From: an uncultured Methanosarcinales archaeon | Lineage (GTDB): Archaea; Nanobdellota; Nanobdellia; Woesearchaeales; CAYPCY01 | Direction of reading: 5' to 3' | Length of the DNA stretch: 64,000 bases | Assembly: GCA_964409385.1 (NCBI GenBank) | Contig: CAYPCY010000001.1 | Coordinates: 41,456 to 105,455 of the forward strand | Shown: positions 997-41,733 of the stretch, one piece after another | Numbering within the stretch: the stretch's first letter is position 1 | Layout of the letters: each line of letters opens with the position of its first letter | Translations under genes and position numbers: made by a program | Notes under the pieces: generated by a model | Seen by the model: the letters and a program-made list of their open reading frames with translations, nothing else | What the model was told of the DNA's origin: nothing | Databases searched by the model: none

Positions 997-1671
997 TTAT
1001 ATTAATTTTAAACTAGCTTTTTCAAGAATAAAATCATATTTTGAAAGTTTTCCTTTTCCATCATAAACAGGATAAGAAATTCCTAGAACAGAATCAGGCT
1101 CAGAATCTTTTGCATTAATAACTACGCTTGGAGAATATTTTATATCCAATTCAAACTTATCATATCCTAAATTCAATTCTAATTTTTTCTTAATTCCATA
1201 AACACTCGTTATTTCCCTTGTTGTTTCATAGTCTGTAGATGAATGAAAAGTGTCAAAATAAGCATGTGAATGAATCCAACCAATAATTCTTTTTTGTTCT
1301 TTAATAATTTTTTTCTCAAGACATTCCACCTCTAAAACTTCACAATATGCCCTTTCAATTTTTTGCCTATCTGGTAATTGTAAATCTATTATTTCATCAG
1401 AATCATTCTCAGAAATTGCATAAAGAAAGATTTCTAGTGGAGAATTATATTTTTTAATAATTTTTTTTGCAAGATAAATTCCTTTTAATAATGCTTTTTT
1501 CTTAATTATTACTTGTTTTGGAAAGATATTTATAGTTTCCTGAATCGACACATTAACATAATTTGAAAGAAGTTTAATTATTGTTTTTTCTCTTTTATTA
1601 TATTTTTTTGACTTTTGATATTGTTTCCACCAAAATTTTAATGACTTGTTAGCAACCACAAATCTCACCAC
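997..1671 (-). CDS. JAMM/MPN+ metalloprotease (Rpn11/deubiquitinase-like), last gene of the Ubl-E2-E1-JAMM cassette
   Basis: Motif E...HSHAYFDTFHSSTD fits E-x(n)-H-x-H-x7-S-x2-D. It overlaps the upstream E1-like gene by 23 nt. Confidence 0.7.
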   Translation of the reverse strand: MVRFVVANKSLKFWWKQYQKSKKYNKREKTIIKLLSNYVNVSIQETINIFPKQVIIKKKALLKGIYLAKKIIKKYNSPLEIFLYAISENDSDEIIDLQLPDRQKIERAYCEVLEVECLEKKIIKEQKRIIGWIHSHAYFDTFHSSTDYETTREITSVYGIKKKLELNLGYDKFELDIKYSPSVVINAKDSEPDSVLGISYPVYDGKGKLSKYDFILEKASLKLI

Positions 1672-2929
1672 ACAAATCTTTTTTTCTTGAAAATAAATTT
1701 TGTGAATAAGAAGAAAAATTTAATGAAACATTTTTATTCAAATTTAAAGATAATGCTTCCACTGCCATTTGAGTTCCTACAAACATATTAGTTGTTATCA
1801 CACTAGGAGAAATATTTTCAGACATACAAGAATTTTTAATTTCTTTAAATTTTGAAAATCCTTTTCTACAATCCAAACAATTATTCTTTGACGGAATATA
1901 TGTTGATAATTCCCCTTCAGATTGATCAGTTCTTCCATCAACATAAACTTTTCCTGCTTTTACAGCAGCAGCGCTCAAAATAGATCTGGTTTTAAAATTA
2001 TCTACACAACCAAGAATTATATCAGATTTGGAAATCAAACTATTAATATTATTAACAGAAACATTTTCAACAAGATAAGATACATTAATAGATTTATTAA
2101 GTTTTGATATTCTTTTTGCTAGACTTTTTGATTTATATTCTCCAACAAGTCCATAATACAATATTTGTCTATTTAAATTTGAAGTTTCAACAATATCTGA
2201 ATCAATAATTTTTAAATTAGTATTTGATGATGCCAAACCTAGTGCTGAAAAAGTTCCTAAAGCGCCAGCACCAACAATAAGCGCATTTCCATAGTCGTTC
2301 AACAAAGTAGGTAAAAAATAAGTTACTTTTTCGCTCTCTCTTAATTTTTTCTCACCAGTCAAAACAAACAACTCTTTCCTAACAGAGTCAAGAACTATGG
2401 ACGCAATAATTCCTGAAGTCAACATTCCTTGTTTTCTACCATGATATTCTGATAATAAAATTTCTGACAAACTTTTTTGTTTAATAAATTTAGAACTTTT
2501 TTTTGTGGAGCTAACAGAATACATTTTTATGTTTGATTTCATAGCATACTCAAAACAAATTTCTTTAGAGTAAGAATTATTTGAACATTCTATTATTATA
2601 TCTGGATTTTCATAATTAAGAATGGCCTTTATTGGTTTTATAAAATAACTTGAGTAGTTTACATTTTGATTAATAAGTTTCAAAGTTTCAATAATTAATT
2701 CGTTTTTTTTAGAACCCATACTGTTTTTTTTTAAACTAAGAAAATTAAAATTAGTTTTTGCACGGGTATTATCTATTAACACAATATTTCCAAAACCGAG
2801 TGCTGAAAGTCCTGCTAAAATATATTGGGATGAAAAATCAGTTCCAGAAACAAGTATTTTGGTTTTTTTTAACTTATTTTGATTTTTACGCCCCCATATT
2901 CTAACATGTCTATCTTCAACATCATACAT
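1649..2929 (-). CDS. E1-like ubiquitin-activating enzyme, single chain with an N-terminal inactive adenylation domain and a C-terminal active adenylation domain (eukaryotic Uba1/SAE/NAE-like architecture)
   Basis: N-half has DRHVRIWG...KILVSG with a degenerate Gly loop, matching the YDRQIRLWG start of eukaryotic E1 regulatory subunits. C-half has IVGAGALGT...IDSDIVETSNLNRQ (ThiF/MoeB/E1 ATP-binding motif), CLDC (CxxC) and a candidate catalytic Cys in SCMSENISPS followed by GTQMAVEALSL. The C-terminus is CGEICGC. Confidence 0.7.
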   Translation of the reverse strand: MYDVEDRHVRIWGRKNQNKLKKTKILVSGTDFSSQYILAGLSALGFGNIVLIDNTRAKTNFNFLSLKKNSMGSKKNELIIETLKLINQNVNYSSYFIKPIKAILNYENPDIIIECSNNSYSKEICFEYAMKSNIKMYSVSSTKKSSKFIKQKSLSEILLSEYHGRKQGMLTSGIIASIVLDSVRKELFVLTGEKKLRESEKVTYFLPTLLNDYGNALIVGAGALGTFSALGLASSNTNLKIIDSDIVETSNLNRQILYYGLVGEYKSKSLAKRISKLNKSINVSYLVENVSVNNINSLISKSDIILGCVDNFKTRSILSAAAVKAGKVYVDGRTDQSEGELSTYIPSKNNCLDCRKGFSKFKEIKNSCMSENISPSVITTNMFVGTQMAVEALSLNLNKNVSLNFSSYSQNLFSRKKDLCGEICGC

Positions 2930-3973
2930 TTAACTAACCTCGCAAATTTCAAGATTAGTATTTTTTAAAGTATAATAGGGAATTAATAAATCATTAAAAT
3001 TAATAGGATTTAATTCTCTATGAACTGCTACATTATTAGTAACTCCTTTTTTCAAAAGATTTTCTCCTGTAATCAATACATCTGCAATTTGGCCTGCAAC
3101 ATTATTTTCTTTTAGCTTATTAATATTATAAGAATTAAATGACACTCTTTTGTCTCTCCAATATTGTTTTATATAAGGACCGTGACATATTGATCGAGAA
3201 TTTGTTGAATAATTTGTTAATGGATGTTTATATTTACCTTTTACTCTTGCAATTGTAAATTGAAGTAATGAATTATTAAGAGAAATAGTAGTGTATACTT
3301 CTGCTGGAGGAAATTTATAATAATTGGTGCCTGATTTTATTATAAAAGTTTCCAACTTAGAGATAATTTGATATTTTGAATTTCCAATTTTATTAATTGA
3401 AATATTTCTTTTTATAATAGGAAATTTTTGAATAATATAATTATTGTTAAATGTAATATTTGAATCAATTAAGAAATCATATTTTCTTTTAAATTTATTA
3501 TATGACATCAAATTAGTTAAGGAATACGTACTTTCTTCAAAGTTCACATATTCATGATTATTTTTTGAAGGATTTAAAGAATAAATATTTGTTTGATAAA
3601 AAAGAAGTCCTTTATTCTTATCTAAAATATTATTTATTAATGATTTATTAAATTTTTTTAAATTAACATTAGCTTTTTCAGTTTTTCTTCTACTAATTTT
3701 TTTATTTTTTTTAATAATAAAATACTCATTTGCGACCTCTTCGAAAAAATTATTAATAGTGAAATTTTCTTTTTTATTAGGTATATTATTGTACTTCTCC
3801 AATAATTCATTTTCTAAATATTTAATACTTTCAGAAATTTCAAGGCCTATTTTTATATCATGAAATGCGAGAAAATTATTTTTGGATTCTTTTGTTAAAG
3901 TATATATTCTTTCTTTCATTATTATAAAAGGATCTTTAGAATCCATAAGAATTTTAATAAGTGAAGGAAGCAA
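2930..3973 (-). CDS. E2-like (UBC-fold) ubiquitin-conjugating enzyme candidate with a ~200-aa N-terminal extension of unknown function
   Basis: C-terminal region YKFPPAEVY...KHPLTNYSTNSRSICHGPYIKQYW resembles the E2 core YPFKPP...HPN-x(8-10)-ICL-x(6-8)-W. The stop/start abuts both the Ubl gene and the E1 gene. Confidence 0.4.
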   Translation of the reverse strand: MLPSLIKILMDSKDPFIIMKERIYTLTKESKNNFLAFHDIKIGLEISESIKYLENELLEKYNNIPNKKENFTINNFFEEVANEYFIIKKNKKISRRKTEKANVNLKKFNKSLINNILDKNKGLLFYQTNIYSLNPSKNNHEYVNFEESTYSLTNLMSYNKFKRKYDFLIDSNITFNNNYIIQKFPIIKRNISINKIGNSKYQIISKLETFIIKSGTNYYKFPPAEVYTTISLNNSLLQFTIARVKGKYKHPLTNYSTNSRSICHGPYIKQYWRDKRVSFNSYNINKLKENNVAGQIADVLITGENLLKKGVTNNVAVHRELNPINFNDLLIPYYTLKNTNLEICEVS

Positions 3974-4378
3974 TTACTTTCCTCCTGCGGGTGTATAATC
4001 CATCACTAAATTTATTGATTTAAAAGTTACTTGTGAAGAACCTATAGGACGCTCTTCTTCATTAAGAATTTGTGAAGAATAATCTCCTATTATATCTTGT
4101 AAGCCTATTTCAGTTAATTGGTCATTATTATTTTTAAAATATATTGATGTTCTTCCTTGATTATTTTCCATCCTATTTTTCCATCTCTTTAAAGTTGTTG
4201 TAGTTTCTATTTGAGAAGAAGAGTATTCTTCATTCAAATCATCTTTTTTATTAGTTAATAAATAGTCAGTTATATCTGAAAATGTTCTTTCCATATAAGA
4301 ACTATTCACTTGTTTTGTTAAAGTTTCCAAATTATTTTGTCCTCTTGCTGATAAAGATGTTATTATTGGTTTTTCCAT
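3974..4378 (-). CDS. Ubiquitin-like modifier precursor candidate (C-terminal ...NLVMDYTPAGG-K), first gene of the cassette
   Basis: 134 aa ending in a diglycine plus one extra Lys, as expected for a Ubl that needs C-terminal processing. It abuts the E2-like gene and is co-oriented with the E1 and JAMM genes. The fold itself is not verifiable by eye. Confidence 0.35.
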   Translation of the reverse strand: MEKPIITSLSARGQNNLETLTKQVNSSYMERTFSDITDYLLTNKKDDLNEEYSSSQIETTTTLKRWKNRMENNQGRTSIYFKNNNDQLTEIGLQDIIGDYSSQILNEEERPIGSSQVTFKSINLVMDYTPAGGK

Positions 4379-4524
4379 TTTAATACCTCCAGTAATTTCA
4401 ATTAAAACTATTACTATTTTTTTTATTTAAATTATTGAAGAAAAAGTCTCAGATTTTCAAGAATCTTGAATAACTGTCGACCTCATAGAAAAGTATTTAA
4501 AGTTCTTGCTTTTTTTTCTTATTA

Positions 4525-5160: not shown

Positions 5161-5537
5161 TGTTAACTTTGCAATTCATTCCTTATTTTGAAATTGAACA
5201 ATTAGATTCTGAAGAAAGAATTAAAAAATTAATTAAATTGGTTAAACAAGAAAAAATAGTTTTGTTAGAAGGACGATTAGATCAAGAAGAAGAAACTGAT
5301 TTAATTAGAAGGACAATGGAAGAAATTTCTGGAAAATTTAAAGGCATAGAATTAAGTGTTATTTATCCTGATGGTGGAGATTCTGATTTTTTTAATAAAT
5401 TAAAACAGACAATATTAAATGTTATTCTTGGAAATAGACAAGGCATGACAATAATAGGTCCTGCATCTATAATTAAAGAAATAAAACAAGATCCTGATAA
5501 GATTCAATTATTTGCTATAGATAAGAGGCGAAAATAA
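5160..5537 (+). CDS. Conserved archaeal protein of unknown function (DUF2073-like), co-operonic with the GTPase
   Basis: 125 aa. Translationally coupled to both neighbours. The family assignment is from memory of conserved archaeal GTPase/DUF2073/Zn-ribbon neighbourhoods. Confidence 0.35.
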   Translation: MLTLQFIPYFEIEQLDSEERIKKLIKLVKQEKIVLLEGRLDQEEETDLIRRTMEEISGKFKGIELSVIYPDGGDSDFFNKLKQTILNVILGNRQGMTIIGPASIIKEIKQDPDKIQLFAIDKRRK

Positions 5538-5918
5538 ATGTCGCACCAATGTGTTAATTGTGGTAATTTATTTGATAATAAATCTGAGAAAATATTAACT
5601 GGTTGTGATTGTGGTGGAAAATTATTTTTTTTCATTAAAAATAATGCATCAATAAAAAAATCTTCTGAGGATCTAATTAAATTAACAACTAAAGATAAAA
5701 AACAAATTGAAAAAGATGTTTATGATTTAATTGGGAATGAATTAGATAAAGATAAACCAATAGTTCTTGATTTAGAAACTATTAAAATTCTTAAGCCTGG
5801 TAAGTATGAGTTAGATCTTGTTTCTTTATTAAAAAAGAAACCTTTAATATTTAAACTTCAAGAAGGAAAGTATGTTATAGATCTTACTGAAAGTTTTAAA
5901 GAAAAATATTTTAAATAA
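5538..5918 (+). CDS. Zn-ribbon protein (CxxC...CxC)
   Basis: N-terminal CVNCGNLF...GCDCGG. It follows the DUF2073-like gene directly. Confidence 0.5.
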   Translation: MSHQCVNCGNLFDNKSEKILTGCDCGGKLFFFIKNNASIKKSSEDLIKLTTKDKKQIEKDVYDLIGNELDKDKPIVLDLETIKILKPGKYELDLVSLLKKKPLIFKLQEGKYVIDLTESFKEKYFK

Positions 5919-5919
5919 G

Positions 5920-6675
5920 ATGTTTGTTGATTGTCATGCCCATTTAGATTCTGAAAAATTTACTAATTTGTCCAGTATTTTAGATAATTCTGTTAAATCA
6001 GGTGTTAAAAGAATCATGAATAATGGATTGGATCCTGAAAGCAATAGAAGAACATTAGAACTTTCTAAACATAAAATTATTGATGCAGCATTAGGTATTC
6101 ATCCCACAATTATTCCTGAATTATCTATAAATGAAATTGATAAAGAAATTAGTTTTATTGAGAAAAATGTTGATGTTATTAAGGCTATTGGCGAAACAGG
6201 TTTAGATTTTCATTGGATTGATAAGAGTGATTTGAAAATTGTTAAAAAAATGAAGGAAACTTTTGAAAAACTTGTAAAGGTTTCTTTAAAGTATTCTAAA
6301 CCTATTATTGTTCATTCTAGAAAGGCAGAACTTGAAACTGTTGAGTTACTTGAAACTCTTAATAGTGAAAAAGTTGTTATGCATAGTTTTACTGGAAAGA
6401 AAGCATTATTAAAAAGAATTATTAAAAATAAATGGTTTGTTTCAATTCCTTGTACTGTAGTTAGAAGTACGCAAATTCAAGATTTTGTTAAGTTAGTTCC
6501 TTTAAAACAATTACTTACTGAGACTGATTGTCCTTGGCAATCTCCATTTTCTGGCAGAAATAATGAGCCAAGATTTGTTTCTGAATCAATAAAAAAGATT
6601 TCTGAAATTAAAGAAATTAATGAAATAGAATTACAAAAGATTATTTTTTCTAATTATATTCGATTGTTTGATTAA
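5920..6675 (+). CDS. tatD: TatD-family metal-dependent hydrolase/DNase
   Basis: MFVDCHAHLD start, with conserved His/Glu/Asp positions typical of TatD. 251 aa. Confidence 0.85.
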   Translation: MFVDCHAHLDSEKFTNLSSILDNSVKSGVKRIMNNGLDPESNRRTLELSKHKIIDAALGIHPTIIPELSINEIDKEISFIEKNVDVIKAIGETGLDFHWIDKSDLKIVKKMKETFEKLVKVSLKYSKPIIVHSRKAELETVELLETLNSEKVVMHSFTGKKALLKRIIKNKWFVSIPCTVVRSTQIQDFVKLVPLKQLLTETDCPWQSPFSGRNNEPRFVSESIKKISEIKEINEIELQKIIFSNYIRLFD

Positions 6676-7480
6676 TAACTTTTTCAATCAGAAAACTATC
6701 TAAATTAATATGTTGTTCAACTCCTTGGTTTAATTTTTTTCTGTTTAATTTTTTGCCTGAACTTTCAAATAATACACTATTAATTCCTTTCTTTGATAAG
6801 TATTCACTCATAGTATAATATCCTGGTTCAAAAGTTAAAATTTTTTCAAGAGCTGTCTTTTCAAAACCTAATGCGTAACCATGAATATTCAATTTCCATT
6901 TTGGAATTGTTCTAGAATCTAATTCGTTAACAAACTTATTAGTTTTATTAAGAAAAGTATTATTAAATTTATTTTTTTTTAGAATTGTTATTGTAGCTGG
7001 TAAAAATCGTGAGTATGCGTGATGATCTATATGTAAATAAATTCCTTCTTCTATTAAATTATCAATTTCATTTCTGAGAGCTGACGCAATTTCTGTATTT
7101 ATGCTATTTTCTTGAAACCATATTCTATTAAGATCTACCTTATCAACTATACTGTTAGTGTCTTTATAGTGATCTATTGTTCGTCTAGCTCCATTTCTAG
7201 CAGCCCAAGGATTACAAAATACTGCTTTGAAAGTTATATTATCAAAAGAATTCTTGTATTTTTCTACTATATTCTTTGCAGATTCTGCAAATGAATAGCA
7301 AGCGGCATATTCATCTCCGTGTAATGCATAGGTTGAAAGTATTGTTTTTTTCCCATTTCCAATTTCTGCACTTATTAAGTATTTATCAAAAGAATTAATT
7401 TTTTTAAGTTTTACATTAAATCCTCTACTTTCTAATTCTTCTAAAGAGTATAATACTTCATGATATGAGTTTTCTTTCAT
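6650..7480 (-). CDS. Zinc hydrolase of the succinylglutamate desuccinylase/aspartoacylase (AstE/AspA, M14-like) family
   Basis: ALHGDEYA, NPWAARNGARR and HIDHH motifs. Confidence 0.55.
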   Translation of the reverse strand: MKENSYHEVLYSLEELESRGFNVKLKKINSFDKYLISAEIGNGKKTILSTYALHGDEYAACYSFAESAKNIVEKYKNSFDNITFKAVFCNPWAARNGARRTIDHYKDTNSIVDKVDLNRIWFQENSINTEIASALRNEIDNLIEEGIYLHIDHHAYSRFLPATITILKKNKFNNTFLNKTNKFVNELDSRTIPKWKLNIHGYALGFEKTALEKILTFEPGYYTMSEYLSKKGINSVLFESSGKKLNRKKLNQGVEQHINLDSFLIEKVINQTIEYN

Positions 7481-7511
7481 GAAAGAGGAAATTTTATGTT
7501 AAATAAAAAGC

Positions 7512-7775
7512 TTACTGAACATATTCTGCTATTTTATGTATAATATATGCAGTTCCTAATCCCATAATTGCATATACAAAATTACTTGTTTCTTCATCAA
7601 GTTCTCTTCTTTTTTGTCTTTTTAATGTTGGTTTATGTTGTTTTTTTATTTTATTTGGTGTTTTTTTTCTAATTTCCCTCTTTTTAACTTGAGAACTTAT
7701 TTTTTTTGCTTCTTTTTTTATTAAATCCGTGATTCCTGAAGATTCTGTTTTCATAATATCTTCTAATAAACTCAT
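7512..7775 (-). CDS. Hypothetical small basic protein with a C-terminal hydrophobic segment
   Basis: ORF only. Confidence 0.3.
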   Translation of the reverse strand: MSLLEDIMKTESSGITDLIKKEAKKISSQVKKREIRKKTPNKIKKQHKPTLKRQKRRELDEETSNFVYAIMGLGTAYIIHKIAEYVQ

Positions 7776-7835
7776 TATTATTATTTTGTTAAAATAATTT
7801 AAAATAATTTCTTAGTTAATTTCAGAAATATTTCA

Positions 7836-8228
7836 TTATTCTAGTAAGAATTTTAATAATTCCCCATCATATTCTATTCTTGGAAGTATCATTACTGAAT
7901 CATGTTTTAATTTATGTATTTCTTTTATTGGCTCTCCAGAAACTTTCGCTTTCAATTTATAATAATTATCTTCTCTTGTTAATTTAATTTCAAATTTATT
8001 CAATACAATTGCATTAACATTTAACATATCAATTATTTCTTGCAACCAATCAAGTGATAAAATTTGAAAATTTCTTGATTTTAGTTCAATTTCAAAATCA
8101 CTTGTTGAATGCGTTTTTTTTAAATCTATTAAATAAGACATTAATTCTATTGCTGATTTCTCTAAAAGTTTTTCTTTGTTTTTTTCTTTTACTGTTATTT
8201 CAACAGCTCTTCCTTTTCTTTTTAACAT
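7836..8228 (-). CDS. Archease-like protein (tRNA-ligase cofactor family) with a divergent N-terminus
   Basis: LLEKSAIELMSYLIDL, DFEIELKS..LDWLQEIIDML..FEIKL and LKAKVSGEPIKEIHKLKHD align to the archease blocks LEEAF..AA..FSLMTDL and LKAKAWGEP..HE.K. The canonical N-terminal HTAD motif is not seen. Confidence 0.45.
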   Translation of the reverse strand: MLKRKGRAVEITVKEKNKEKLLEKSAIELMSYLIDLKKTHSTSDFEIELKSRNFQILSLDWLQEIIDMLNVNAIVLNKFEIKLTREDNYYKLKAKVSGEPIKEIHKLKHDSVMILPRIEYDGELLKFLLE

Positions 8229-8229
8229 T

Positions 8230-8670
8230 TTAATAGTGTTTTAGTAAATTCATTAATGCTGCACCTATTGATGCTGGGAATGCAAGTAAAAAACTACCTC
8301 CAAACAAATCAGGTGTAATTTGGAAAATGTATAAAATTGTAAAACAAACTAGTAAAGTTATTGAATATATTAATAGTACCTGTTCTATAAAATAAAATGT
8401 GAATCTTTTTTTTTGATATTTTTTTAATTTTGAGAATGAAAGAAAAACAGTGTGAAAAATAATTGCTATCGTCAATAGTAGTGCAAATATAAACTTTATT
8501 GTTGTTAATTCATTAACTGCTTGATTAAATCCTTGAGTTAATGAGGTTATTAAAGCAACTAATGTAGCACCTAGAAATACTCTGAATACATTCTCTGCAT
8601 CTAAAGTTTCATGTTTAAATTCGTATTCTAAACCTTTAATTTTTTTTTCTAGACTGTTTATGTGCTTCAT
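8230..8670 (-). CDS. Integral membrane protein (4 predicted TM segments)
   Basis: Hydrophobic segments. ORF only. Confidence 0.35.
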   Translation of the reverse strand: MKHINSLEKKIKGLEYEFKHETLDAENVFRVFLGATLVALITSLTQGFNQAVNELTTIKFIFALLLTIAIIFHTVFLSFSKLKKYQKKRFTFYFIEQVLLIYSITLLVCFTILYIFQITPDLFGGSFLLAFPASIGAALMNLLKHY

Positions 8671-8672
8671 GT

Positions 8673-8885
8673 TCAGTCTATAATTATGGTTTTATATTCT
8701 TCCTCTTTTTCTTCTTTTTTTTCTTGAGGTGTTTGAGATTCTTGGTTCATAAAATCCAAACCTCCCATGCTAAACTCATTAGATTGTGTTGGTGTTGGTT
8801 CATTTTCTAATAGGGTTTGTAAAAGCTCGATCGTCTTTCTTATCTCATTATGAGAATCAGAATTTGTGTCTATTGTTATTTTCAT
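8673..8885 (-). CDS. Hypothetical small acidic protein
   Basis: ORF only. The conserved GC-rich motif lies just upstream. Confidence 0.25.
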   Translation of the reverse strand: MKITIDTNSDSHNEIRKTIELLQTLLENEPTPTQSNEFSMGGLDFMNQESQTPQEKKEEKEEEYKTIIID

Positions 8886-9064: not shown

Positions 9065-10155
9065 TTAATATTAATTATTTGTTCCCACGAGAAGTTTTTA
9101 TTTCCGAAATGGCCATAAGTTGCTGTTTGCCTGAATATTGGTTGTTTCAGATTGAAGTATTTTATCATTTTTGCTGGTGTTAGTGGAAAGTTTTCTTTTA
9201 TTATTCTTATTAGTTCTTCTTCTGTTAATTCTGAAGTTCCAAAAGTATCTACAAATATACTTACTGGTTTTGAAACTCCTATTGCATAACTTAGTCCGAC
9301 TTCGCATTTCTTGCATAGGTTGTTTGCTACTAAGTTTTTTGCTATAAATCTTGTTGCGTAAGCTGCTGATCTGTCCACTTTTGATAAGTCTTTTCCTGAG
9401 AATGCTCCTCCTCCGTGTCTTCCCATTCCTCCATAAGTATCCACTATTATTTTTCTTCCTGTTAGTCCAGCATCTGCTTCTGGTCCTCCTTTAATGAAAC
9501 TTCCTGTTGGATTAATTAAAAATTTAGTATTCTCATCAAAGTATTCTTTACATACTGGTTTTATTACTTTCTCAATTATTTCTGTTTCTAATATTTTTTT
9601 ATTTACTTCTTCATGTTGGGTTGATACTACTATCGTATCTATTCTTTTTGGTTTAGTTCCTTCGTATTCTATTGTCACTTGTGATTTTCCATCTGGTTTT
9701 AAGAATGTTATTTCTTTATTCTTTCTTACTCTTGCTAATTGTTTTGTTAGTTTATGCGCTAAATCTATTGGTAGTGGCATTAATTCTTCTGTTTCGTCAC
9801 ATGCAAAGCCAAACATCATTCCTTGATCTCCCGCTCCTTGTTCTTTATCTTCTGTTTCTGTTACTCCTTGTGATATTTCTTGACTTTGTTTTGTTATATT
9901 AGTTAATACTTTTGGAGTGTATTCATACCCTATTTCTTTTAGAACTTGCCTTACTATCAGTTCTGGTTCTATAATTGCTTTTGTTGTTAATTCTCCTGCA
10001 ATTACTACTAAATCATTTTTTACTAGTGTTTCTATTGCTACTCTTGAATTTTCATCTTGTCTTAAGCATTCATCAAGAATTGCGTCTGAAATTTGATCGC
10101 ATACCTTGTCTGGATGGCCTTCTGTTACACTCTCACTAGTAAATAATCTTTTCAT
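9049..10155 (-). CDS. metK: S-adenosylmethionine synthetase, bacterial/eukaryotic-type MAT
   Basis: [33 protein letters not shown] and [10 protein letters not shown] signatures. The last 5 codons overlap the 5' end of the tRNA-Val gene. Confidence 0.9.
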
Positions 10156-10196
10156 GAGAATTTACAATTAGGAATTGTTTAAAAAACTAACTAAAA

Positions 10197-11465
10197 CTAT
10201 TTCTTTACTATTATTTCAATATTTATAACTTGTTTTATTTCTTTTGTTAAATTATTCTTTAATTTTTCTATATTAATTTTTTCTAATTCTAGAGTTAAAT
10301 TTTCAATATCATTTTTTGTCGAGTTAAGTTTATCTTTCTTTTGTTTAATGGATTTTTCTTGTTCCTCAACTTTTTTAATTATTGTCATTTTTTCTTGTTC
10401 TAGACTATGGATATTTATTTCGGTTGTCAATTTTTTATGTTTCCTTGTAAAATTTTTGAAGTAAGTTCTATCGAGTTTAGTTAGTTTTTGTAAGATTTTA
10501 TTTTTTTTCTTGTCTTTTAATTCTATTCTTCCATCTACAATAAGATTGTTCATCTTGGCAAGCAATTTAACTATTTTTAATTCTTTATCTAATAACAATA
10601 TTTGTAATGGATTTTTTAAATAACTTCTCACCAGTTTTTGTTCTAGTGTGATTCTTTCATATTTTTTTAATGCACGTACTATCACAGAAAAGTTTTGTAA
10701 GATTTCTTTTTCTAAGTTTTCTAATTCTTTAATTACTAGTTTTTTTTTATTAATTAGATTGATAAATTGTTTATGAGACTTTCCTTCTTCAAGATCTTTT
10801 AAGTTGGTCTCTTCATTCTTTATAATTTTGTTTTCCTCTTCATTCTTTTCTTTTGTTAGTTTTATTTTTTCTTTAAGTTCTTTTTTAAAGTTTATTTTCT
10901 GTTGTATTTTCTCTAGATTTTTTTTTAATTCATCTGCTTTTAATATTTTTGATTCTTCAATTGTTTCTTTTGCCTTTTTGATTAACTTAATGAGTTCTTT
11001 GATATTATCATCTACATTTCTTAATTCTAGTATGAAAAATTCATTTAATATTTGGTGGTTTCTTATTGTGTTTTTACCAAAATCATTTAATAATGTATCA
11101 AAAGAATTACAAAACTCTAACAATTTGTTAAAATTTTCAGATAAAACTATTGTTTCTAAGAACCTTTCAATTCTTTTTACATATATTTCTCGGTTACCTT
11201 TCATTATCTGCTTTGCTCTCTCAGGCGTGTTAGGATTTACTTCTGCTTTCAACAATTTTTGACTATTCTCGTATGCGTTATTTTTTTCTTTATCTATGAG
11301 CATTTTTATCTCTGCTAATTTCAGAGTTGTATTAGTAAACATTGTTTTTGACCAAGAATTGATGTACTCTTTTACTTCTAATAGTGTGAGTTCTTTCACT
11401 TCTTCATTCTTCTTAGAAAACTGTTTTAAAAAATTTAAAAATCTCATTTTTTTTGTTAATCTCAT
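10197..11465 (-). CDS. Lys/Glu-rich coiled-coil protein, function unknown
   Basis: Heptad-like K/E/L-rich composition across ~400 aa. Confidence 0.35.
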   Translation of the reverse strand: MRLTKKMRFLNFLKQFSKKNEEVKELTLLEVKEYINSWSKTMFTNTTLKLAEIKMLIDKEKNNAYENSQKLLKAEVNPNTPERAKQIMKGNREIYVKRIERFLETIVLSENFNKLLEFCNSFDTLLNDFGKNTIRNHQILNEFFILELRNVDDNIKELIKLIKKAKETIEESKILKADELKKNLEKIQQKINFKKELKEKIKLTKEKNEEENKIIKNEETNLKDLEEGKSHKQFINLINKKKLVIKELENLEKEILQNFSVIVRALKKYERITLEQKLVRSYLKNPLQILLLDKELKIVKLLAKMNNLIVDGRIELKDKKKNKILQKLTKLDRTYFKNFTRKHKKLTTEINIHSLEQEKMTIIKKVEEQEKSIKQKKDKLNSTKNDIENLTLELEKINIEKLKNNLTKEIKQVINIEIIVKK

Positions 11466-13964: not shown

Positions 13965-14261
13965 ATGTTTAAGAAAGGAGCTAGTATTTCATTCAATACA
14001 ATAACCCTTGCAATTGTTGGTATTATTGTCCTTTTAGTTATAATTACTGTCTTTACTGGTAAGAGTAATTTAATTTCTAAAGATTTGAGTGCTTGCGAAT
14101 CTAAAGGGGGAGTTTGTCAAGGTAGTTGTGCCGATTCTTTTCAAACAGCTACTGATTTTGTTTGTACGGAACAGGAGTTAACTTGTTGTATTAATGTTTA
14201 CGATAAGCCTGTGGAAGATGCTAATGTTGATGTGGTTGATTCTTGGAGTAGTTTAATATGA
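13965..14261 (+). CDS. Small pilin-like protein with a class III (type IV prepilin-like) signal peptide and a Cys-rich C-terminus
   Basis: MFKKGASISFNTITLAIVGIIVLLVIITVF is a KKGA/S-type prepilin signal. Six Cys in the C-terminal half. Overlaps the next gene by 4 nt. Confidence 0.45.
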   Translation: MFKKGASISFNTITLAIVGIIVLLVIITVFTGKSNLISKDLSACESKGGVCQGSCADSFQTATDFVCTEQELTCCINVYDKPVEDANVDVVDSWSSLI

Positions 14262-16018
14262 GAAGAATAAACTTAATTTTAATGTTTGTATTGTTCCTTT
14301 CTAGTTTAGTTTCTGCTCAAGATTATGTTTATCTTTCTCTGAATGGAAATAGTATTTCTGGACAAAATAGTTTAGATTTGGAAGTTGGATCTTCTTATAA
14401 TTTCGAAGCTTCTGGAAGTTCTAATATTGCTAAAGTAAAAATGTACATTTCAGGAACTAATTTGCAGGAAGAAGGATTAACTGCAGATTTTGTTTTTTCT
14501 CCTGAAAGTCCTAACCAGCACGATTTAGTTATTATTGGTTATGACTCTGATGATTATGCCGTTGCTTCTTCAACTTTAACCTTAGTAGTTGGTGGTTGTC
14601 AGGAAGAGTGGGAGTGTTTTGAATGGAGTAGTTGTATTAGTAATTCTCAAACTAGAACTTGTGTTGATAATAATTTTTGTGGAACTAATTATGATGAACC
14701 AGTTCAGGAACAATATTGTGAACCAGACATTCCTGGTTGTACTGATTACTATTCTAATAATTATGATGATTCTGCTACTATTAATGATGGTAGTTGTGAG
14801 TATGATATTTATGGTTGTATGGATATTGAAGCTTTGAATTATGATCCTAATGTTAATATTAATGATTCTAGCTGTGAGTATGAAGAAGAACTTGCTGATG
14901 ACGAATGCAGTTCAGAATTTGATGTTTCTATCTCTGGAGATCCTTGGGTTTACAAATGTTTTTCTTCAAGTACTGCTCAAGGTTGTAAGGATGGTGTTGT
15001 TGGTAATGTTTTTAATATTCCTTCAAATCATGCATTACTTTCTAGATGTCAAGAACAAAATATTGATTTTGAAGGGTATGTTATTCCTGACACATGTTTG
15101 GGACAGAGTGATAGTTTTAATTACTTGAAAGACTGTACCAATCCAAGACTTAATGCTATTAGATTAATGATTATTGAAGAAGCAGAAAAAGAAAATATTG
15201 ATCCTTTATTTGCCCAGGCTGTTGCTTGTGTTGAAACTAAAATATCACATTTACAATCAAATGGTGAAATTCAAGCTAGTGGAACTGGCTCATTAGGTAT
15301 TTTTCAAGTGACAGAAACAACTGCAAGATCTATAGAAAATGATTGTTATAATGAGATTCCTAACTTTGATATTTATGATGAATATGACAATATTGTTTGT
15401 GGTTTGAAAATTATGAATGGAAAAGATGGTTATTTTGATGATGCTAGTGAATATTTGCAAAAAGTTCCTAATAATTGTCCTGAAAGCGAATATCCTGAGT
15501 ATTATGAATTATACTCTACTTATTCAACTAATAAGTGGAATAGGATTGCTAGAGCTTATAATTCCATGTCCTGTAGAACTGGGTCTGGAGCAGATATTTG
15601 TTATGTTGAGAAGGTATTGTATGCTATGAATATTCTTGAAGATTCTTCTTCTGATCTTTCTAAATGTTCGGGCATTATCGATTGTATTGGTAAAGAGGAT
15701 GTTATGAAATTTACATTCAAGGATGATGGTTTTTTTGGTATTGGAAGTAGAGAGTTTGATGTTTTTGCCGGGGTTGTTGATTCTTTCTCAGTATTATCTG
15801 ATGATGATTTCGAGGGTTTAGATGATAATGATATTATTGTTTTGTACAGTTCTGAAGAAAATCGTGTTGCTTTTATTCCTAGTGATAATGAGGGCGAGGA
15901 GGAGTTACTTACTGCTTCTTTAAACAGTTTGTCTAGCCAGTTTTCTTATGATCCTTATGGTGCAATGTATAAGTTCTTGGGAGAAGTAGAGTATACTACT
16001 GATACTTTTATTGGTTGA
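14258..16018 (+). CDS. Secreted Cys-rich protein with GC(T/M)D..NYD..DDGSCEY repeats and a lytic transglycosylase (SLT)-like domain
   Basis: Signal peptide MRRINLILMFVLFLSSLVSA. Repeats CTDYYSNNYDDSATINDGSCEY and GCMDIEALNYDPNVNINDSSCEY. SLT-like core AQAVACVETKISH...ASGTGSLGIFQVTETTA resembles the transglycosylase block ES...GA.GLMQ..P.TA. Confidence 0.5.
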   Translation: MRRINLILMFVLFLSSLVSAQDYVYLSLNGNSISGQNSLDLEVGSSYNFEASGSSNIAKVKMYISGTNLQEEGLTADFVFSPESPNQHDLVIIGYDSDDYAVASSTLTLVVGGCQEEWECFEWSSCISNSQTRTCVDNNFCGTNYDEPVQEQYCEPDIPGCTDYYSNNYDDSATINDGSCEYDIYGCMDIEALNYDPNVNINDSSCEYEEELADDECSSEFDVSISGDPWVYKCFSSSTAQGCKDGVVGNVFNIPSNHALLSRCQEQNIDFEGYVIPDTCLGQSDSFNYLKDCTNPRLNAIRLMIIEEAEKENIDPLFAQAVACVETKISHLQSNGEIQASGTGSLGIFQVTETTARSIENDCYNEIPNFDIYDEYDNIVCGLKIMNGKDGYFDDASEYLQKVPNNCPESEYPEYYELYSTYSTNKWNRIARAYNSMSCRTGSGADICYVEKVLYAMNILEDSSSDLSKCSGIIDCIGKEDVMKFTFKDDGFFGIGSREFDVFAGVVDSFSVLSDDDFEGLDDNDIIVLYSSEENRVAFIPSDNEGEEELLTASLNSLSSQFSYDPYGAMYKFLGEVEYTTDTFIG

Positions 16019-17726
16019 ATATTTTACTTACGTAAGGTCCGTCATTCTTATAACCTAACTTTCTATAATATTCTTTAACTCCAACTCCTGAAATTACTAG
16101 TAGTTTGTCTTTATTGTTTTTTTTACTTATTCTTTCTGCTTCTTGCATTAGTTTCGTTCCTATTCCCATATGTTGTGTTTTTCCTTCCTTGTTTATTCCA
16201 ACTGCCGTTCCGTAGACATGGAGTTCTCTTACTATTGCTGAATTTTTATTTATTTCAGATCTTAATGATTGACTTACAAATCTTAATCTGCAAAATCCTA
16301 ATAGTTTATCTTTTTCTTCTGCTGCTATGAAATATTCTTTTCCTTTGGATGCTTCATATTCTTGAATTTTTATTTTGAAATTTTCTACTTCATGTCCAAC
16401 TTTTGGTTGTCTACATCTTATACACCTACATTTGACTCCTTTTTTTTCTGCTAATTCTGCCACGTATTGTCTTAAGTTTGTTCTTTCTACTCCTGCAGAG
16501 CTGTATTTTGTTGGTATATCTCTTTGAACTCTCATTATTCTACAATATTCAGGCACTATTCTTTTCATTTCTACTATTCTTTCTGATGCTTCTTCAATAT
16601 TTATTGGATTGAATTTTCCTAGTTTCCATAGCTTGTATAAGGGTGTTCCTGGAAATACTAAGCAAGGATATATTTTTAGCATGTCTGGTTTATAGTTTGG
16701 ATTTGTGAATAATTCTTTCATTCCTGCTATATCTTTTTCCCTATTATCTTCTAAAGTTGGCGATCCTGGCATATAATGATAGTTTAGTTTAAATCCTAGG
16801 TCTTTTAGTGTTCTTACTGATTCTATTGTGTGGTTTATGTCATGTCCCCTGTGTGTTATTCTTAGTATTTCATCATAGACTGTTTGTACTCCTAATTCTA
16901 CCTTTGTTGCTCCTTGTTCTAGCATTAGATTTCCTTGTTTTATTAATGCCCAGTCTGGTTTTGTTTCTATTGTTAAGCCTATGCATCTTATGTTTGAAGT
17001 TTCGTTTTCTAGTTTTACTTTTTCTAAAGTGCATGTTTTTTTTAGTTTGAGTATTTTTTCTTGTATTCTTTTTATTCTTTCTTTATTGTCTTTATTTCCT
17101 GGTAGTTCAAAGAACTCTTTGAATTTATTAAGGTCTAATTCTCCTTTTTTGTAGAATGCTTTTGAGAAGTCGTTCATTGCTTTGTAAATATTTTTTACGA
17201 ATTCTTCTTGGTATTCTTTGGCATAACTTGGAAATGTTCCTCCCATTACTATAACATCTGTTTTTTCAGGGTTTTGGTTTAATACTACGTATTGTTCTAA
17301 TCTGTTGAAAACTTGTAAGTAAGAGTCATATCCTGCTCTTATTCCTCTCATTGTTGCTGGTTCTTTTCCTGTGTATGATTGTGGAACATTTCCGAAGTAA
17401 CTGTCTGGACCTCCTGGACAGTATGTGCATTTTCCATGTGGACATGGTGCTGGTTTTGTCATTACTGCTATTATTGCAACTCCACTGTTTGTTCGTACTG
17501 GTTTTGTTTTTAGAAGTTTGTTGTTTTGTAATTGTTTTGGTGCTTTTAGGAATAATTCTATATTTGTTGGTATTTTTTTCTTTTTGTGTTTTATACATAA
17601 TTTTACTTTTAGATTGTTTAGTTGTGCTTTGTTTAAATTGTTTTTTTCTATTTCTTTGAATAGTTCTTGATAATATTCCATGGTTTTTGGTATTTTATTT
17701 GTTTTATAAAGTTTTACTGTCACCAC
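16008..17726 (-). CDS. elp3: Elp3 homolog (radical-SAM plus GNAT tRNA U34 carboxymethyl-modifying enzyme)
   Basis: Radical-SAM cluster CPHGKCTYCPGGPDS and C-terminal GNAT HVYGTAVGI...MGIGTKLM. 572 aa. Confidence 0.9.
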   Translation of the reverse strand: MVTVKLYKTNKIPKTMEYYQELFKEIEKNNLNKAQLNNLKVKLCIKHKKKKIPTNIELFLKAPKQLQNNKLLKTKPVRTNSGVAIIAVMTKPAPCPHGKCTYCPGGPDSYFGNVPQSYTGKEPATMRGIRAGYDSYLQVFNRLEQYVVLNQNPEKTDVIVMGGTFPSYAKEYQEEFVKNIYKAMNDFSKAFYKKGELDLNKFKEFFELPGNKDNKERIKRIQEKILKLKKTCTLEKVKLENETSNIRCIGLTIETKPDWALIKQGNLMLEQGATKVELGVQTVYDEILRITHRGHDINHTIESVRTLKDLGFKLNYHYMPGSPTLEDNREKDIAGMKELFTNPNYKPDMLKIYPCLVFPGTPLYKLWKLGKFNPINIEEASERIVEMKRIVPEYCRIMRVQRDIPTKYSSAGVERTNLRQYVAELAEKKGVKCRCIRCRQPKVGHEVENFKIKIQEYEASKGKEYFIAAEEKDKLLGFCRLRFVSQSLRSEINKNSAIVRELHVYGTAVGINKEGKTQHMGIGTKLMQEAERISKKNNKDKLLVISGVGVKEYYRKLGYKNDGPYVSKIFNQ

Positions 17727-40671: not shown

Positions 40672-41733
40672 TTGGCAGATAATGAAGATATTGGAATTCC
40701 AGCTCCTGAAAAGACATTACCAGCTTTAGATGCTGATGAAGAATCATTATTAGAACCTGATAATTCTCCTCCTGCTTTAGAAGATCATATTGATAATTTT
40801 GAAAAATCTTCTGAAGATAAAGAAGTTGTTAAAGAAGAAATTTCTAATATTGAACTTCCTAAGGAAACTTTAGAGTCTCCAAAGGAAGATACAATTCCTA
40901 ATATTGAAACTAAGTTAGAAGCTGCAACTCCAAAAAAGGGTTTTTTTCAGAATATTAAAGAAAAATTCAGTAAGCAAGAAACTAAACTACCTACACCTGT
41001 TAAGATAGAACCTGTAAGAACAGAACCTGAACTTCCTAAAGAAGAACTTGTTGAAGAACCAAAAGAGACAGAATTGCCTCCTGAAGTTGAAGGGAAGAAA
41101 ATTTCTGACATTATTGAAAAAGTAAAGGATAAAGAAGATGATATTAGAAAGCGAGAAAATTTACTTATTATAAAAAGGGAGGAACTCAAGCATAAATCAT
41201 TAGATTTGAAGGGTATGGAGTCTGAAATTAATAATAGACTTACTAAGCTTGAAGAATTAGAAAAATTAATTAGTAGTAAAGAGGGAGAATTAGCGTATAA
41301 AGAAGAGTTAATTGCTGAAAAGGAAAAACAAATTCTTGAAATTGAAGATTATGTTAAAAAAATTCAAGAAAAGAGGATTAAACAGGATGTTTTTATTGAG
41401 ACTACTGCTAAGAAGCTTGATGAAAAGTCTATGTTTAAGAATTTCCTTCATGAGAAAATTCTTCCTAAAGAAGAAATTCCTTCTATGGATATGGAATTTG
41501 ATAATTTTTCTGAACGTTTAGATAAAATTCAAATTTTTAATTTAGTAGATTATGCTTATTCTTTATTAAGGGAAGGTAATTATTCTGAGGCTAGAAAAGT
41601 TTATTCTCGGTTAAGATTGAAATTTAAGAATTCAAGACTTGATTCTGTTGAGAAAGCAGTGGCATTGACTGCTGTTAAAAGCTTATATTTTGATTTAAGA
41701 TCTTATTCTGAAGGTCTTGTTTCTAGCCAATAA
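40672..41733 (+). CDS. Acidic, Glu/Lys-rich coiled-coil protein
   Basis: PE/KE-rich low-complexity N-half and a coiled-coil C-half. Confidence 0.35.
   Translation: MADNEDIGIPAPEKTLPALDADEESLLEPDNSPPALEDHIDNFEKSSEDKEVVKEEISNIELPKETLESPKEDTIPNIETKLEAATPKKGFFQNIKEKFSKQETKLPTPVKIEPVRTEPELPKEELVEEPKETELPPEVEGKKISDIIEKVKDKEDDIRKRENLLIIKREELKHKSLDLKGMESEINNRLTKLEELEKLISSKEGELAYKEELIAEKEKQILEIEDYVKKIQEKRIKQDVFIETTAKKLDEKSMFKNFLHEKILPKEEIPSMDMEFDNFSERLDKIQIFNLVDYAYSLLREGNYSEARKVYSRLRLKFKNSRLDSVEKAVALTAVKSLYFDLRSYSEGLVSSQ

What the first reader, a model, noticed from the sequence alone, without database searches (positions are those of the whole stretch)
997..4378. Compact eukaryote-like ubiquitin cassette: Ubl precursor, E2-like, tandem-domain E1 and JAMM protease
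Four co-oriented minus-strand genes with abutting or overlapping stop/start codons (4378 to 997).

- (i) A 134-aa protein ending ...PAGG-K, which reads as a ubiquitin-like precursor needing C-terminal trimming.
- (ii) A 347-aa protein whose C-terminal region carries a UBC-like HPx...C...W core.
- (iii) An E1 with all adenylation and Cys motifs.
- (iv) A JAMM/MPN+ protease with a complete E...HxHx7Sx2D motif.

This gene set is that of a self-contained ubiquitylation/deubiquitylation module, comparable to the rare operon-type Ub systems reported in Caldiarchaeum and Asgard archaea. It differs from the common archaeal SAMP/UbaA sulfur-carrier pairs. I cannot tell from sequence alone whether this particular arrangement has been described.
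Basis: partly seen in the sequence, partly recalled or inferred. Interest (0 to 1): 0.9.

Follow-up and report, generated by a model that had tools for sequence, protein, structure and literature searches.

The report
DPANN archaeal ubiquitin-like conjugation operon
A tiny-celled (DPANN) archaeon carries a four-gene operon for a small protein tag ending in Gly-Gly, a two-domain activating enzyme, a carrier enzyme with a ubiquitin-E2-like fold and a trimming protease: a ubiquitin-style tagging kit whose tag and carrier belong to protein families not matched by any library searched.

Summary
The same gene set recurs in at least 13 other metagenomic loci.

- **E1:** a single chain with a degenerate N-terminal ThiF-fold domain and an active C-terminal one. 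It has an invariant Cys in a short crossover loop and a four-Cys zinc site.
- **JAMM:** a complete, family-invariant E...HxHx7Sx2D motif. Its family profile is closest to Rpn11-type enzymes.
- **134-aa protein:** also a new sequence family. In 13 of 17 homologues Gly-Gly sits at the aligned C-terminal site, followed by 0-9 variable residues. Its fold could not be tested because the model failed.

Most likely this is an E3-independent Ubl conjugation and deconjugation system. Its closest known analogue in gene content and E1 architecture is bacterial BilABCD, but it is not a member of that family. I rate it a new variant of a known kind. Its biological role is unknown.

The parts
4424..4431 (-). 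TTTAAATA, candidate archaeal TATA box about 49 nt upstream of the first ATG, in the 146-bp divergent intergenic region
   Evidence: Read from the sequence. Inference only: no archaeal promoter tool was available.
4385..4390 (-). GGAGGT Shine-Dalgarno-like site, 6 nt before the ATG of the Ubl gene
   Evidence: Read from the sequence.
3974..4378 (-). Ubl-candidate precursor, 134 aa. Gly132-Gly133 are at 3985-3980, the removable Lys134 at 3979-3977, the stop at 3976-3974.
   Evidence: ORF. It is 83% identical in L001, where the tail residue changes from K to N. In 13 of 17 homologues GG sits at the aligned site with a 0-9 residue tail. No Pfam, NCBIfam, PADLOC or PDB sequence match. Fold untested.
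2930..3973 (-). E2-like protein, 347 aa: two N-terminal repeats plus a C-terminal UBC-like domain
   Evidence: ORF. Homologues. AlphaFold model with pLDDT 85.3.
3776..3952 (-). Repeat 1 of the E2-like protein (aa 8-66; four strands plus a helix)
   Evidence: Secondary structure of the model. hhalign of repeat 1 against repeat 2 gives probability 95.9%, E 5e-9.
3434..3634 (-). Repeat 2 of the E2-like protein (aa 114-180)
2933..3427 (-). UBC-like domain (aa 183-347). His250-Pro251 are at 3226-3221 and the candidate catalytic Cys263 at 3187-3185.
2315..2929 (-). E1, N-terminal degenerate (probably inactive) adenylation domain, aa 1-205, with invariant Arg7
   Evidence: The family profile of this half hits MoeB at 1.8e-20, Uba4 at 3e-19 and ThiF at 7e-15. 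It lacks the NLNRQ and Asp motifs; the glycine loop reads VSGTDFSS.
1649..2314 (-). E1, active adenylation domain, aa 206-426. GAGALG at 2272-2255; NLNRQ 251-255; D310; zinc cysteines C351/C354 (1879-1868) and C424/C426 (1660-1652); candidate catalytic Cys368 at 1828-1826 in a short crossover loop.
   Evidence: Pfam ThiF 1.5e-51. ThiF and MoeB are the best PDB matches. Invariant residues in an 11-sequence family alignment.
997..1671 (-). JAMM/MPN+ metalloprotease, 224 aa. Glu80 at 1434-1432; H134-x-H136...S144..D147 at 1272-1231.
   Evidence: Pfam JAB at 5e-4, below the cut-off. E80, H134, H136, S144 and D147 are invariant in the family. The family profile hits the Caldiarchaeum Rpn11-like protein 6fjv at 2.8e-9 and eukaryotic Rpn11 at 2e-8 to 4e-7.

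Best explanation
The four genes form one transcription unit. It encodes a self-contained, E3-independent system that attaches a ubiquitin-like protein to targets and removes it again, in a DPANN (Woesearchaeota/Nanoarchaeota-type) archaeon.

Proposed steps:
1. The JAMM protease removes Lys134 from the 134-aa precursor and exposes Gly133.
2. The E1 is a single-chain pseudo-heterodimer. Its degenerate N-terminal ThiF-fold domain supplies Arg7. Its C-terminal domain binds ATP and adenylates Gly133.
3. The invariant Cys368, in the short crossover loop next to the four-Cys zinc site, takes the tag as a thioester.
4. The tag passes to Cys263 of the UBC-like domain of the 347-aa protein.
5. That protein uses its two N-terminal repeats to bind substrate and transfers the tag to a target amine without a separate E3.
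6. The JAMM also reverses the modification.

What is shown: the domain identities, the conserved residues, the UBC-like fold, the conserved GG terminus and the conserved operon. What is inferred: every chemical step, the role of the repeats, and the biological purpose.

My best guess for the role is control of protein fate. Three related operons sit next to AAA+ unfoldase genes (Cdc48, a ClpX-like ATPase, and an AAA fragment). The last of these loci also carries proteasome alpha and beta genes about 4-5 kb away.
For: - **Operon anatomy:**
- **E1:** ThiF 1.5e-51 with two stretches. The N-terminal half is a ThiF fold. Family-invariant residues are R7, GAGAxG, D243, D245, NLxRQ, K266, D310, C368 and C424/C426; the CxxC pair is nearly invariant. 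The same zinc arrangement is described for BilD (PMC10557695).
- **Tag:** GG terminus with a variable tail in 13 of 17 homologues, one of which ends exactly at GG. The tag is the most conserved of the four proteins between the window and L001: 83%, against 73% for E1, 62% for JAMM and 53% for the E2-like protein.
- **JAMM:** intact active site, Rpn11-like.
- **Recurrence:** the gene set recurs in at least 13 further loci, in varying order.
- **Domain fusion:** an E2-like domain is fused to a tag-family domain in L107.
- **Neighbours of related operons:** AAA+ and proteasome genes.
- **Genomic setting:** a housekeeping, syntenic chromosomal region.
Against: - The fold of the 134-aa protein is unknown. 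The model had pLDDT 35, and no profile similarity to any Ubl was found.
- The E2 lacks the canonical Asn of the HPN motif.
- No conjugate, thioester or cleavage has been observed.
- The AAA+/proteasome neighbourhood is seen in 3 related loci, not in this window, and could be coincidence.
Confidence: 0.7

Rival explanations
1. The chemistry is the same, but the role is antiviral defence. The cassette would be an archaeal functional analogue of bacterial Bil, tagging a virus structural protein on infection. The fast-evolving N-terminal repeats of the E2-like protein would recognise the viral target.
For: - Gene content and E1 architecture match BilABCD: Ubl, E2, JAB and an inactive-plus-active adenylation-domain (IAD-AAD) E1, with no E3 (PMC11601596 and PMC10557695).
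- The family is rare and patchy. Only 29 proteins reach E <= 0.001 among 1.84 billion representatives.
- Gene order and accessory genes vary, and L107 has paralogue expansions.
- The E2-like protein diverges fastest (53%).
- L056 lies near Bro-N and SprT-like genes.
Against: - No PADLOC hit for the tag, the E2-like protein or the JAMM. BilD scores only E 0.015.
- In the window the cassette sits among housekeeping genes (OapABC, TatD, archease, P-type ATPase, Orc1/Cdc6, TFE). It occupies the same place in a relative that has diverged to 53-83% protein identity.
- No defence genes were seen nearby.
- No relative with a tandem E1 was found in IMG/VR.
Confidence: 0.2
2. It is a sulfur-carrier system. 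The E1 would thiocarboxylate the GG terminus of the small protein for tRNA thiolation or cofactor synthesis, as with SAMP2/UbaA, Urm1/Uba4 or MoaD/MoeB. The JAMM would only mature the carrier.
For: - Both E1 halves are closest in sequence to MoeB, ThiF and Uba4.
- A GG terminus is shared with sulfur carriers.
- Elp3 and a rhodanese/SelU-like gene lie 8-13 kb away.
Against: - The E1 has no rhodanese domain.
- All ThiF, MoeB and UbaA NCBIfam scores are far below their cut-offs (for example UbaA 83 against 450).
- A conserved E2-like protein with an invariant Cys always accompanies the E1.
- Sulfur-carrier E1s are homodimers of one domain, not fused tandems.
- No thiolation or cofactor genes are in the operon.
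Confidence: 0.05
3. The 347-aa protein is not a conjugating enzyme. Its conserved His and Cys would form another kind of site (a Cys-His peptidase or a metal site), or the domain would be a non-catalytic UEV/RWD-like adaptor. The E1 would then conjugate directly, as in SAMPylation.
For: - No sequence-level link to any E2 family.
- Foldseek is negative.
- The catalytic Asn of HPN is missing.
Against: - The order and spacing of strands, HP, Cys, Trp and the long helix match classical E2s.
- The Cys is invariant, unlike in UEV or RWD domains.
- Operon position beside the E1, and a fusion to the tag family in L107.
Confidence: 0.08

Closest known systems
Bacterial BilABCD (Bil, bacterial ISG15-like) antiphage systems, types I and II
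   Same: - Four genes: Ubl, E2, JAB/JAMM peptidase and E1.
- The E1 is one chain with an inactive N-terminal and an active C-terminal adenylation domain.
[quoted passage not shown]
- The Ubl is made with a short tail that the JAB removes.
- No E3; the E2 is thought to choose targets (PMC10557695, PMC11601596).
   Different: - No significant sequence relationship: the PADLOC BilA/B/C models do not hit and BilD reaches only E 0.015.
- BilD carries an inserted CYS domain of about 80 aa. Here the Cys sits in a crossover loop with only 13-24 residues between the CxxC pair and the Cys.
- BilB has a C-E-H-H motif with the key His downstream of the Cys. Here the invariant His-Pro lies 13 residues upstream, as in eukaryotic HPN.
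- The E2 carries two N-terminal repeats.
- The tag is a 134-aa protein of a new family.
- The host is an archaeon, and the locus is not a defence island.
Caldiarchaeum subterraneum / Asgard operon-type ubiquitin systems (Ub, E1, E2, small RING E3, Rpn11-like DUB)
   Same: - Archaeal operon with a tag, E1, E2 and a JAMM.
- The JAMM family profile finds the Caldiarchaeum Rpn11-like protein as its best solved relative (6fjv, E 2.8e-9), followed by eukaryotic Rpn11.
- The E2 has its His-Pro upstream of the Cys.
   Different: - No RING E3.
- The tag and the E2 match neither ubiquitin (PF00240) nor UQ_con (PF00179).
- The E1 here is a fused tandem with a bare crossover-loop Cys. The Caldiarchaeum E1 is described as having a 60-aa Cys domain (PMC11354881).
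Archaeal SAMP / UbaA / HvJAMM1 (and Urm1/Uba4)
   Same: - A GG-ended small protein activated by a ThiF/MoeB-like E1.
- A JAMM protease that matures the tag and removes it from targets.
- The E1 adenylation domains are closest in sequence to MoeB, ThiF and Uba4.
   Different: - SAMPylation needs no E2, and its E1 is a single-domain homodimer.
- Here a conserved E2-like gene and a tandem E1 are always present.
- The NCBIfam UbaA score is 83 against a cut-off of 450.
- Pyrococcus JAMM1 is a much weaker match (3e-3) than Rpn11.
Type II CBASS Cap2/Cap3 and Bub (6E/DUF6527) operons
   Same: - Prokaryotic E1, E2 and JAB machinery.
- PADLOC 'E1-E2' (Cap2-type) models hit the active adenylation domain.
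   Different: - No CD-NTase and no E1-E2 fusion.
- Bub enzymes work through Ser/Tyr oxyesters and lack catalytic Cys, and they carry a DUF6527 protease (PMC11601596). Here both Cys residues are invariant and there is no DUF6527.

Membership tests
E1-like superfamily (ThiF/MoeB/Uba adenylation fold) | Rossmann-like adenylation domain with a GxGxxG loop, an Arg finger (NLNRQ) and a Mg-binding Asp | tested here: met
   Pfam ThiF 1.5e-51, 175 bits against a cut-off of 28. GAGALG, NLNRQ, K266 and D310 are invariant in the family.
Canonical-type (pseudo-heterodimeric) E1, as in eukaryotic E1s and BilD | Inactive N-terminal adenylation domain fused to an active one in the same chain | tested here: met
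   Two ThiF stretches. The N-terminal-half profile hits MoeB at 1.8e-20. That half lacks the NLNRQ and Asp motifs.
Canonical-type (pseudo-heterodimeric) E1, as in eukaryotic E1s and BilD | Separate catalytic-Cys (CYS/SCCH) domain inserted in the crossover loop | tested here: not met
   Only 13-24 residues separate the CxxC pair from the invariant Cys368 across 11 family members, so there is no room for a domain.
BilABCD | Sequence membership of BilA, BilB, BilC and BilD (PADLOC models) | tested here: not met
   No hit for three proteins; BilD reaches E 0.015 only.
BilABCD | E2 with the C-E-H-H motif (catalytic Cys with a conserved His downstream) | tested here: not met
   The invariant residues are Y248, H250 (upstream) and C263. 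The residue after the Cys varies.
UBC/E2 fold superfamily | UBC fold: beta-meander, active-site loop with Cys, then a long helix | tested here: met
UBC/E2 fold superfamily | Sequence membership (Pfam UQ_con or the Prok-E2_A to E families) | tested here: not met
   No such hit for any of 29 family members at E <= 1; one weak UEV hit at 0.0059. The PDB profile search was empty.
UBC/E2 fold superfamily | Thioester formation on the active-site Cys | not testable with these tools
   Needs biochemistry.
Ubiquitin-like beta-grasp modifiers | C-terminal Gly-Gly (or Gly) exposed directly or after trimming | tested here: met
   13 of 17 homologues have GG at the aligned site with 0-9 trailing residues.
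Ubiquitin-like beta-grasp modifiers | Beta-grasp fold | tested here: inconclusive
   The AlphaFold model from 2 sequences had pLDDT 35.5. hhalign against Ub/NEDD8/SUMO/ISG15/Urm1/SAMP/MoaD/ThiS gave probability <= 5%. No Pfam or PDB hit. A crude propensity profile is compatible with the fold but proves nothing.
JAMM/MPN+ metalloproteases | E...HxHx7Sx2D zinc site | tested here: met
   E80, H134, H136, S144 and D147 are invariant. The family profile hits Rpn11-type enzymes at 2.8e-9 to 4e-7. The single sequence is below the Pfam cut-off (20.3 against 22.5 bits).
Caldiarchaeum/Asgard eukaryote-like ubiquitin operon | Ubiquitin-family tag, UQ_con E2 and a RING E3 in the cluster | tested here: not met
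   No PF00240 or PF00179 hit. The operon has four genes with no RING, and its flanks are OapA and a P-type ATPase.
SAMP/UbaA | UbaA equivalog score; E2-independent | tested here: not met
   NF047750 scores 83 bits against a cut-off of 450. An E2-like gene is always present.

The most novel reading that the evidence does not exclude
DPANN archaea hold an independent, ancient lineage of complete ubiquitin-type machinery. It combines a fused inactive-plus-active E1, an HP...C E2 with its own substrate-binding repeats, an Rpn11-like JAMM and a new GG-ended tag. It would mark proteins for Cdc48- or proteasome-dependent processing. Targeted degradation by tagging would then exist in a third archaeal group besides Aigarchaeota (Caldiarchaeum) and Asgard. 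The pseudo-heterodimeric E1 would either predate eukaryotes in archaea or have arisen at least twice.
Probability: 0.15. Interest if true: 0.85.

Novelty: new variant of a known kind. Interest (0 to 1): 0.66.

Why it matters
Complete ubiquitin-type cascades outside eukaryotes are few: the Caldiarchaeum/Asgard operons, and bacterial Bil, CBASS Cap2/Cap3 and Bub. Each has changed views on where the eukaryotic system came from.

This cassette adds a DPANN-archaeal type. Its E1 shares the eukaryotic and BilD hallmark of a fused inactive-plus-active domain pair, yet lacks a Cys domain. Its tag and E2 are invisible to every sequence library I searched.

If active, it gives a minimal four-protein system for studying E3-independent conjugation. 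It also gives a handle on protein regulation in organisms with very small genomes, and a new data point on whether tandem E1s arose once or repeatedly.

Tried and rejected
- **Single-sequence scans.** I scanned the 347-aa and 134-aa proteins against Pfam, NCBIfam, PADLOC, PHROGs and PDB sequences and found nothing meaningful. The weak GABA-receptor, COP9 subunit 2, Hoc-like and terminase hits I dismissed as chance.
- **Word-indexed homologue search.** It found only the protein itself plus one relative for both proteins. The exhaustive profile search was needed to find the E2-like family.
- **AlphaFold of the tag.** Only two sequences were permitted, and the model is unusable.
- **Profile comparisons for the tag.** A Pfam scan of 10 tag homologues gave no recurrent family.
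- **Foldseek of the E2-like model.** No significant match in PDB or BFVD. The afdb50 library was unavailable.
- **Repeat detection.** BLASTP of repeat 1 against repeat 2 found nothing; the profile comparison did.
- **Collection scans.** The genome-contig scan with the E1 found no close relative. Alignment-based scans failed twice for lack of a conserved stretch. The metagenome scan returned only two loci. The viral scan returned only single-domain ThiF proteins or giant-virus E1s.
- **Bub-type oxyester chemistry.** I rejected this because both Cys residues are invariant here.
- **CBASS.** I rejected this because there is no CD-NTase and no E1-E2 fusion.
- **Literature.** Searches for a DPANN, Woesearchaeota or Nanoarchaeota Ubl-E2-E1-JAMM operon found no description in the held library. 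Absence there does not prove it is undescribed.

Full report
**Setting**

The window is AT-rich, with 24-37% G+C. It encodes archaeal housekeeping genes: aIF2-gamma, Nog1, Cbf5, RtcA, Elp3, archease, Orc1/Cdc6 and TFE-alpha. It also encodes bacterial-type DnaK and DnaJ. Its DnaK is 68-74% identical to DnaK of MAGs labelled Woesearchaeota or Nanoarchaeota. The organism is therefore a DPANN archaeon. Identical copies of the cassette occur on JGI, ENA and NCBI contigs of up to 317 kb.

**Observation**

The four minus-strand ORFs are as described.
- The stop of the 134-aa gene is followed directly by the TTG start of the 347-aa gene.
- The stop of the 347-aa gene is followed directly by the E1 ATG.
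- The JAMM ORF overlaps the E1 end by 23 nt.
- GGAGGT precedes the first ATG, and a TTTAAATA lies about 49 nt upstream.

**E1 (1649-2929)**

- Pfam ThiF scores 1.5e-51 with two matched stretches.
- Both halves are ThiF folds. The C-terminal half matches ThiF and MoeB at about 1e-14. A family profile of the N-terminal half matches MoeB at 1.8e-20.
- In an 11-member alignment the C-terminal half keeps GAGAxG, D243, D245, NLxRQ, K266 and D310.
- The N-terminal half has lost NLNRQ and the Asp, but keeps an invariant Arg7.
- C351xxC354 (nearly invariant) and C424xC426 (invariant) form the same four-Cys arrangement described for the zinc site of BilD.
- Cys368 is invariant and lies 13-24 residues after the CxxC pair. 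There is thus no inserted Cys domain, unlike BilD (about 80 aa) or eukaryotic E1s.
- All NCBIfam equivalogs (ThiF, MoeB, UbaA) score far below their cut-offs.

**JAMM (997-1671)**

The single sequence is just below the Pfam JAB cut-off. E80, H134, H136, S144 and D147 are invariant in the family. The family profile finds the following solved relatives:

| Solved relative | E-value |
|---|---|
| Caldiarchaeum Rpn11-like protein (6fjv) | 2.8e-9 |
| Eukaryotic Rpn11 | 2e-8 to 4e-7 |
| CSN5 | 1e-4 |
| Pyrococcus JAMM1 | 3e-3 |

**The 347-aa protein (2930-3973)**

- No library matched it.
- The word-indexed search found only itself and a 53%-identical relative.
- The exhaustive profile search found 29 proteins at E <= 0.001 among 1.84 billion representatives. 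Most matched through the C-terminal region.
- In the 29-sequence alignment E54, Y165, Y248, H250 and C263 are invariant. F221, P251 and G265 are nearly so. This gives the signature Y-x-H-P-[FL]-x(6-12)-[ILV]-C-x-G.
- AlphaFold with that alignment gave mean pLDDT 85.3. The model shows two units of four strands plus a helix, followed by a beta-rich domain, the HP...C loop and a long helix.
- The two N-terminal units are homologous repeats (hhalign 95.9%, E 5e-9).
That is the register expected for a true E2.

**The 134-aa protein (3974-4378)**

- No library match. The only word-index relative is 83% identical and ends PAGG-N instead of PAGG-K.
- I read 16 further homologues from related loci. In 13 of the 17 sequences, Gly-Gly occupies the aligned C-terminal site and is followed by 0-9 unconserved residues: none, A, K, N, PY, KL, YK, VGKAYD, LEYKI, LYNLLRYS or YRTLDYRVR.
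- This is the behaviour of a Ubl precursor.
- The fold is untested. The permitted two-sequence model failed (pLDDT 35), and profile comparisons with known Ubls were negative.

**The operon family**

- The order tag, E2-like, E1, JAMM recurs in L001, L010, L055, L056, L057, L108 and L110. L109 is cut within its E1.
- A second type (L006-L009) has tag, longer E2-like, JAB fused to a long tail, E1, and an extra protein of about 250-285 aa.
- L107 has four tag paralogues, an E2-like domain fused to a tag domain, a RimK-like ATP-grasp and two JAMMs.
- Named hosts are Woesearchaeota and Nanoarchaeota MAGs.
- Some relatives add two conserved proteins with no Pfam match.
- Three related loci sit next to AAA+ unfoldase genes: a true Cdc48 in L108, a ClpX-like ATPase in L008, and an AAA fragment in L006. 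L006 also has proteasome alpha and beta genes about 4-5 kb away.
- In the window the cassette lies between OapABC/TatD and a P-type ATPase. It occupies exactly the same place in L001.

**Mechanism and comparison**

The best-supported reading is a Ubl cascade: JAMM trimming, adenylation, E1 Cys368 thioester, E2 Cys263 thioester, then the target. No E3 is involved, and the E2 repeats are the likely substrate-binding part. The chemistry is inferred, not shown.

- By gene content and E1 architecture the closest known system is bacterial BilABCD. It fails the Bil membership tests: no PADLOC hits, no CYS domain and a different E2 motif.
- It shares an Rpn11-like JAMM and an upstream His-Pro with the Caldiarchaeum/Asgard type. 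It lacks a RING E3 and has no ubiquitin or UQ_con sequence membership.
- It is not a SAMP/UbaA pair, a CBASS module or a Bub operon.
- Five full-text searches found no description of such a cassette in DPANN archaea.

**Verdict**

This is a real, conserved and rare operon. I rate it a new variant of a known kind, interest about 0.66. Whether it serves protein turnover, regulation or antiviral defence cannot be decided from sequence.

Noticed in passing
L107:549-10388: An expanded version of the system. It has four stand-alone tag paralogues: two end in GG or GG-KL, and two lack GG. It also has a 356-aa protein with a short E2-like domain (YDHPFVFNDNSICYGG) fused to a tag-family domain without GG, a RimK-like ATP-grasp gene, and two JAMM-like genes flanking the E1.
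   Followed up: partly
L108:8229-10529 (-); L008:8124-9587; L006:11-631 and 9498-11116: AAA+ unfoldases lie next to related operons: a true Cdc48 (CDC48_N plus two AAA domains), a ClpX-like AAA_2 protein, and an AAA fragment. The last locus (L006) also has proteasome beta and alpha genes about 4-5 kb away. This hints at a link to unfolding or degradation. It is not seen in the window.
   Followed up: partly
L055:1434-2615 and 7287-8720; L057:3-524 and 5251-6150; L108:802-1908 and 6756-8141; L010:9511-10521: Two further conserved proteins flank the four core genes in some relatives: one of about 370-390 aa upstream and one of about 300-480 aa downstream. They have no Pfam or PHROG match. Both are absent from the window.
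   Followed up: partly
L006:5113-5970; L007:7433-8200; L008:7359-8120; L009:7655-8476: In the second operon type a protein of about 250-285 aa with no family match always follows the E1. The JAB domain there is fused to a tail of up to about 800 residues.
   Followed up: no
window:49589-54739 and 55292-59734 (+): Two very large ORFs of 1716 and 1480 aa. The second has Big_9, cadherin-like, PKD and He_PIG domains; the first has no Pfam match. G+C is raised (0.35-0.37) with strong positive GC skew across roughly the first of them (about 50-54 kb). They are probably surface or adhesion proteins of the kind common in DPANN.
   Followed up: partly
window:17780-19153 (+): A 457-aa protein with a lytic transglycosylase (SLT) domain, which is unusual for an archaeon. 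It may act on a bacterial or host cell wall.
   Followed up: no
window:29887-32854 (-); window:9049-10155 (-): Bacterial-type DnaJ/DnaK, and a bacterial-type S-adenosylmethionine synthetase, the latter assigned through the syntenic gene in L003. Beyond the Woesearchaeota/Nanoarchaeota MAGs at 68-74%, DnaK still matches many bacterial candidate-phyla genomes at 50-57% identity. This suggests old transfer between domains.
   Followed up: partly
window:11490-12512 (-) and 16008-17726 (-): A rhodanese plus SelU-like gene (tRNA 2-selenouridine synthase type) and Elp3 lie 8-13 kb from the cassette. Both relate to wobble-uridine modification. I considered this for the sulfur-carrier rival; there is no operon link.
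   Followed up: partly
window:10197-11465 (-), 14258-16018 (+), 23778-25283 (+), 40672-41733 (+), 42852-44234 (+): Several long ORFs (353-586 aa) have no Pfam match at E <= 1e-5.
   Followed up: no
L056:72-4276: One related operon lies beside SprT-like, Bro-N and MJ1341_C genes. This may indicate a mobile element or virus-derived region.
   Followed up: no
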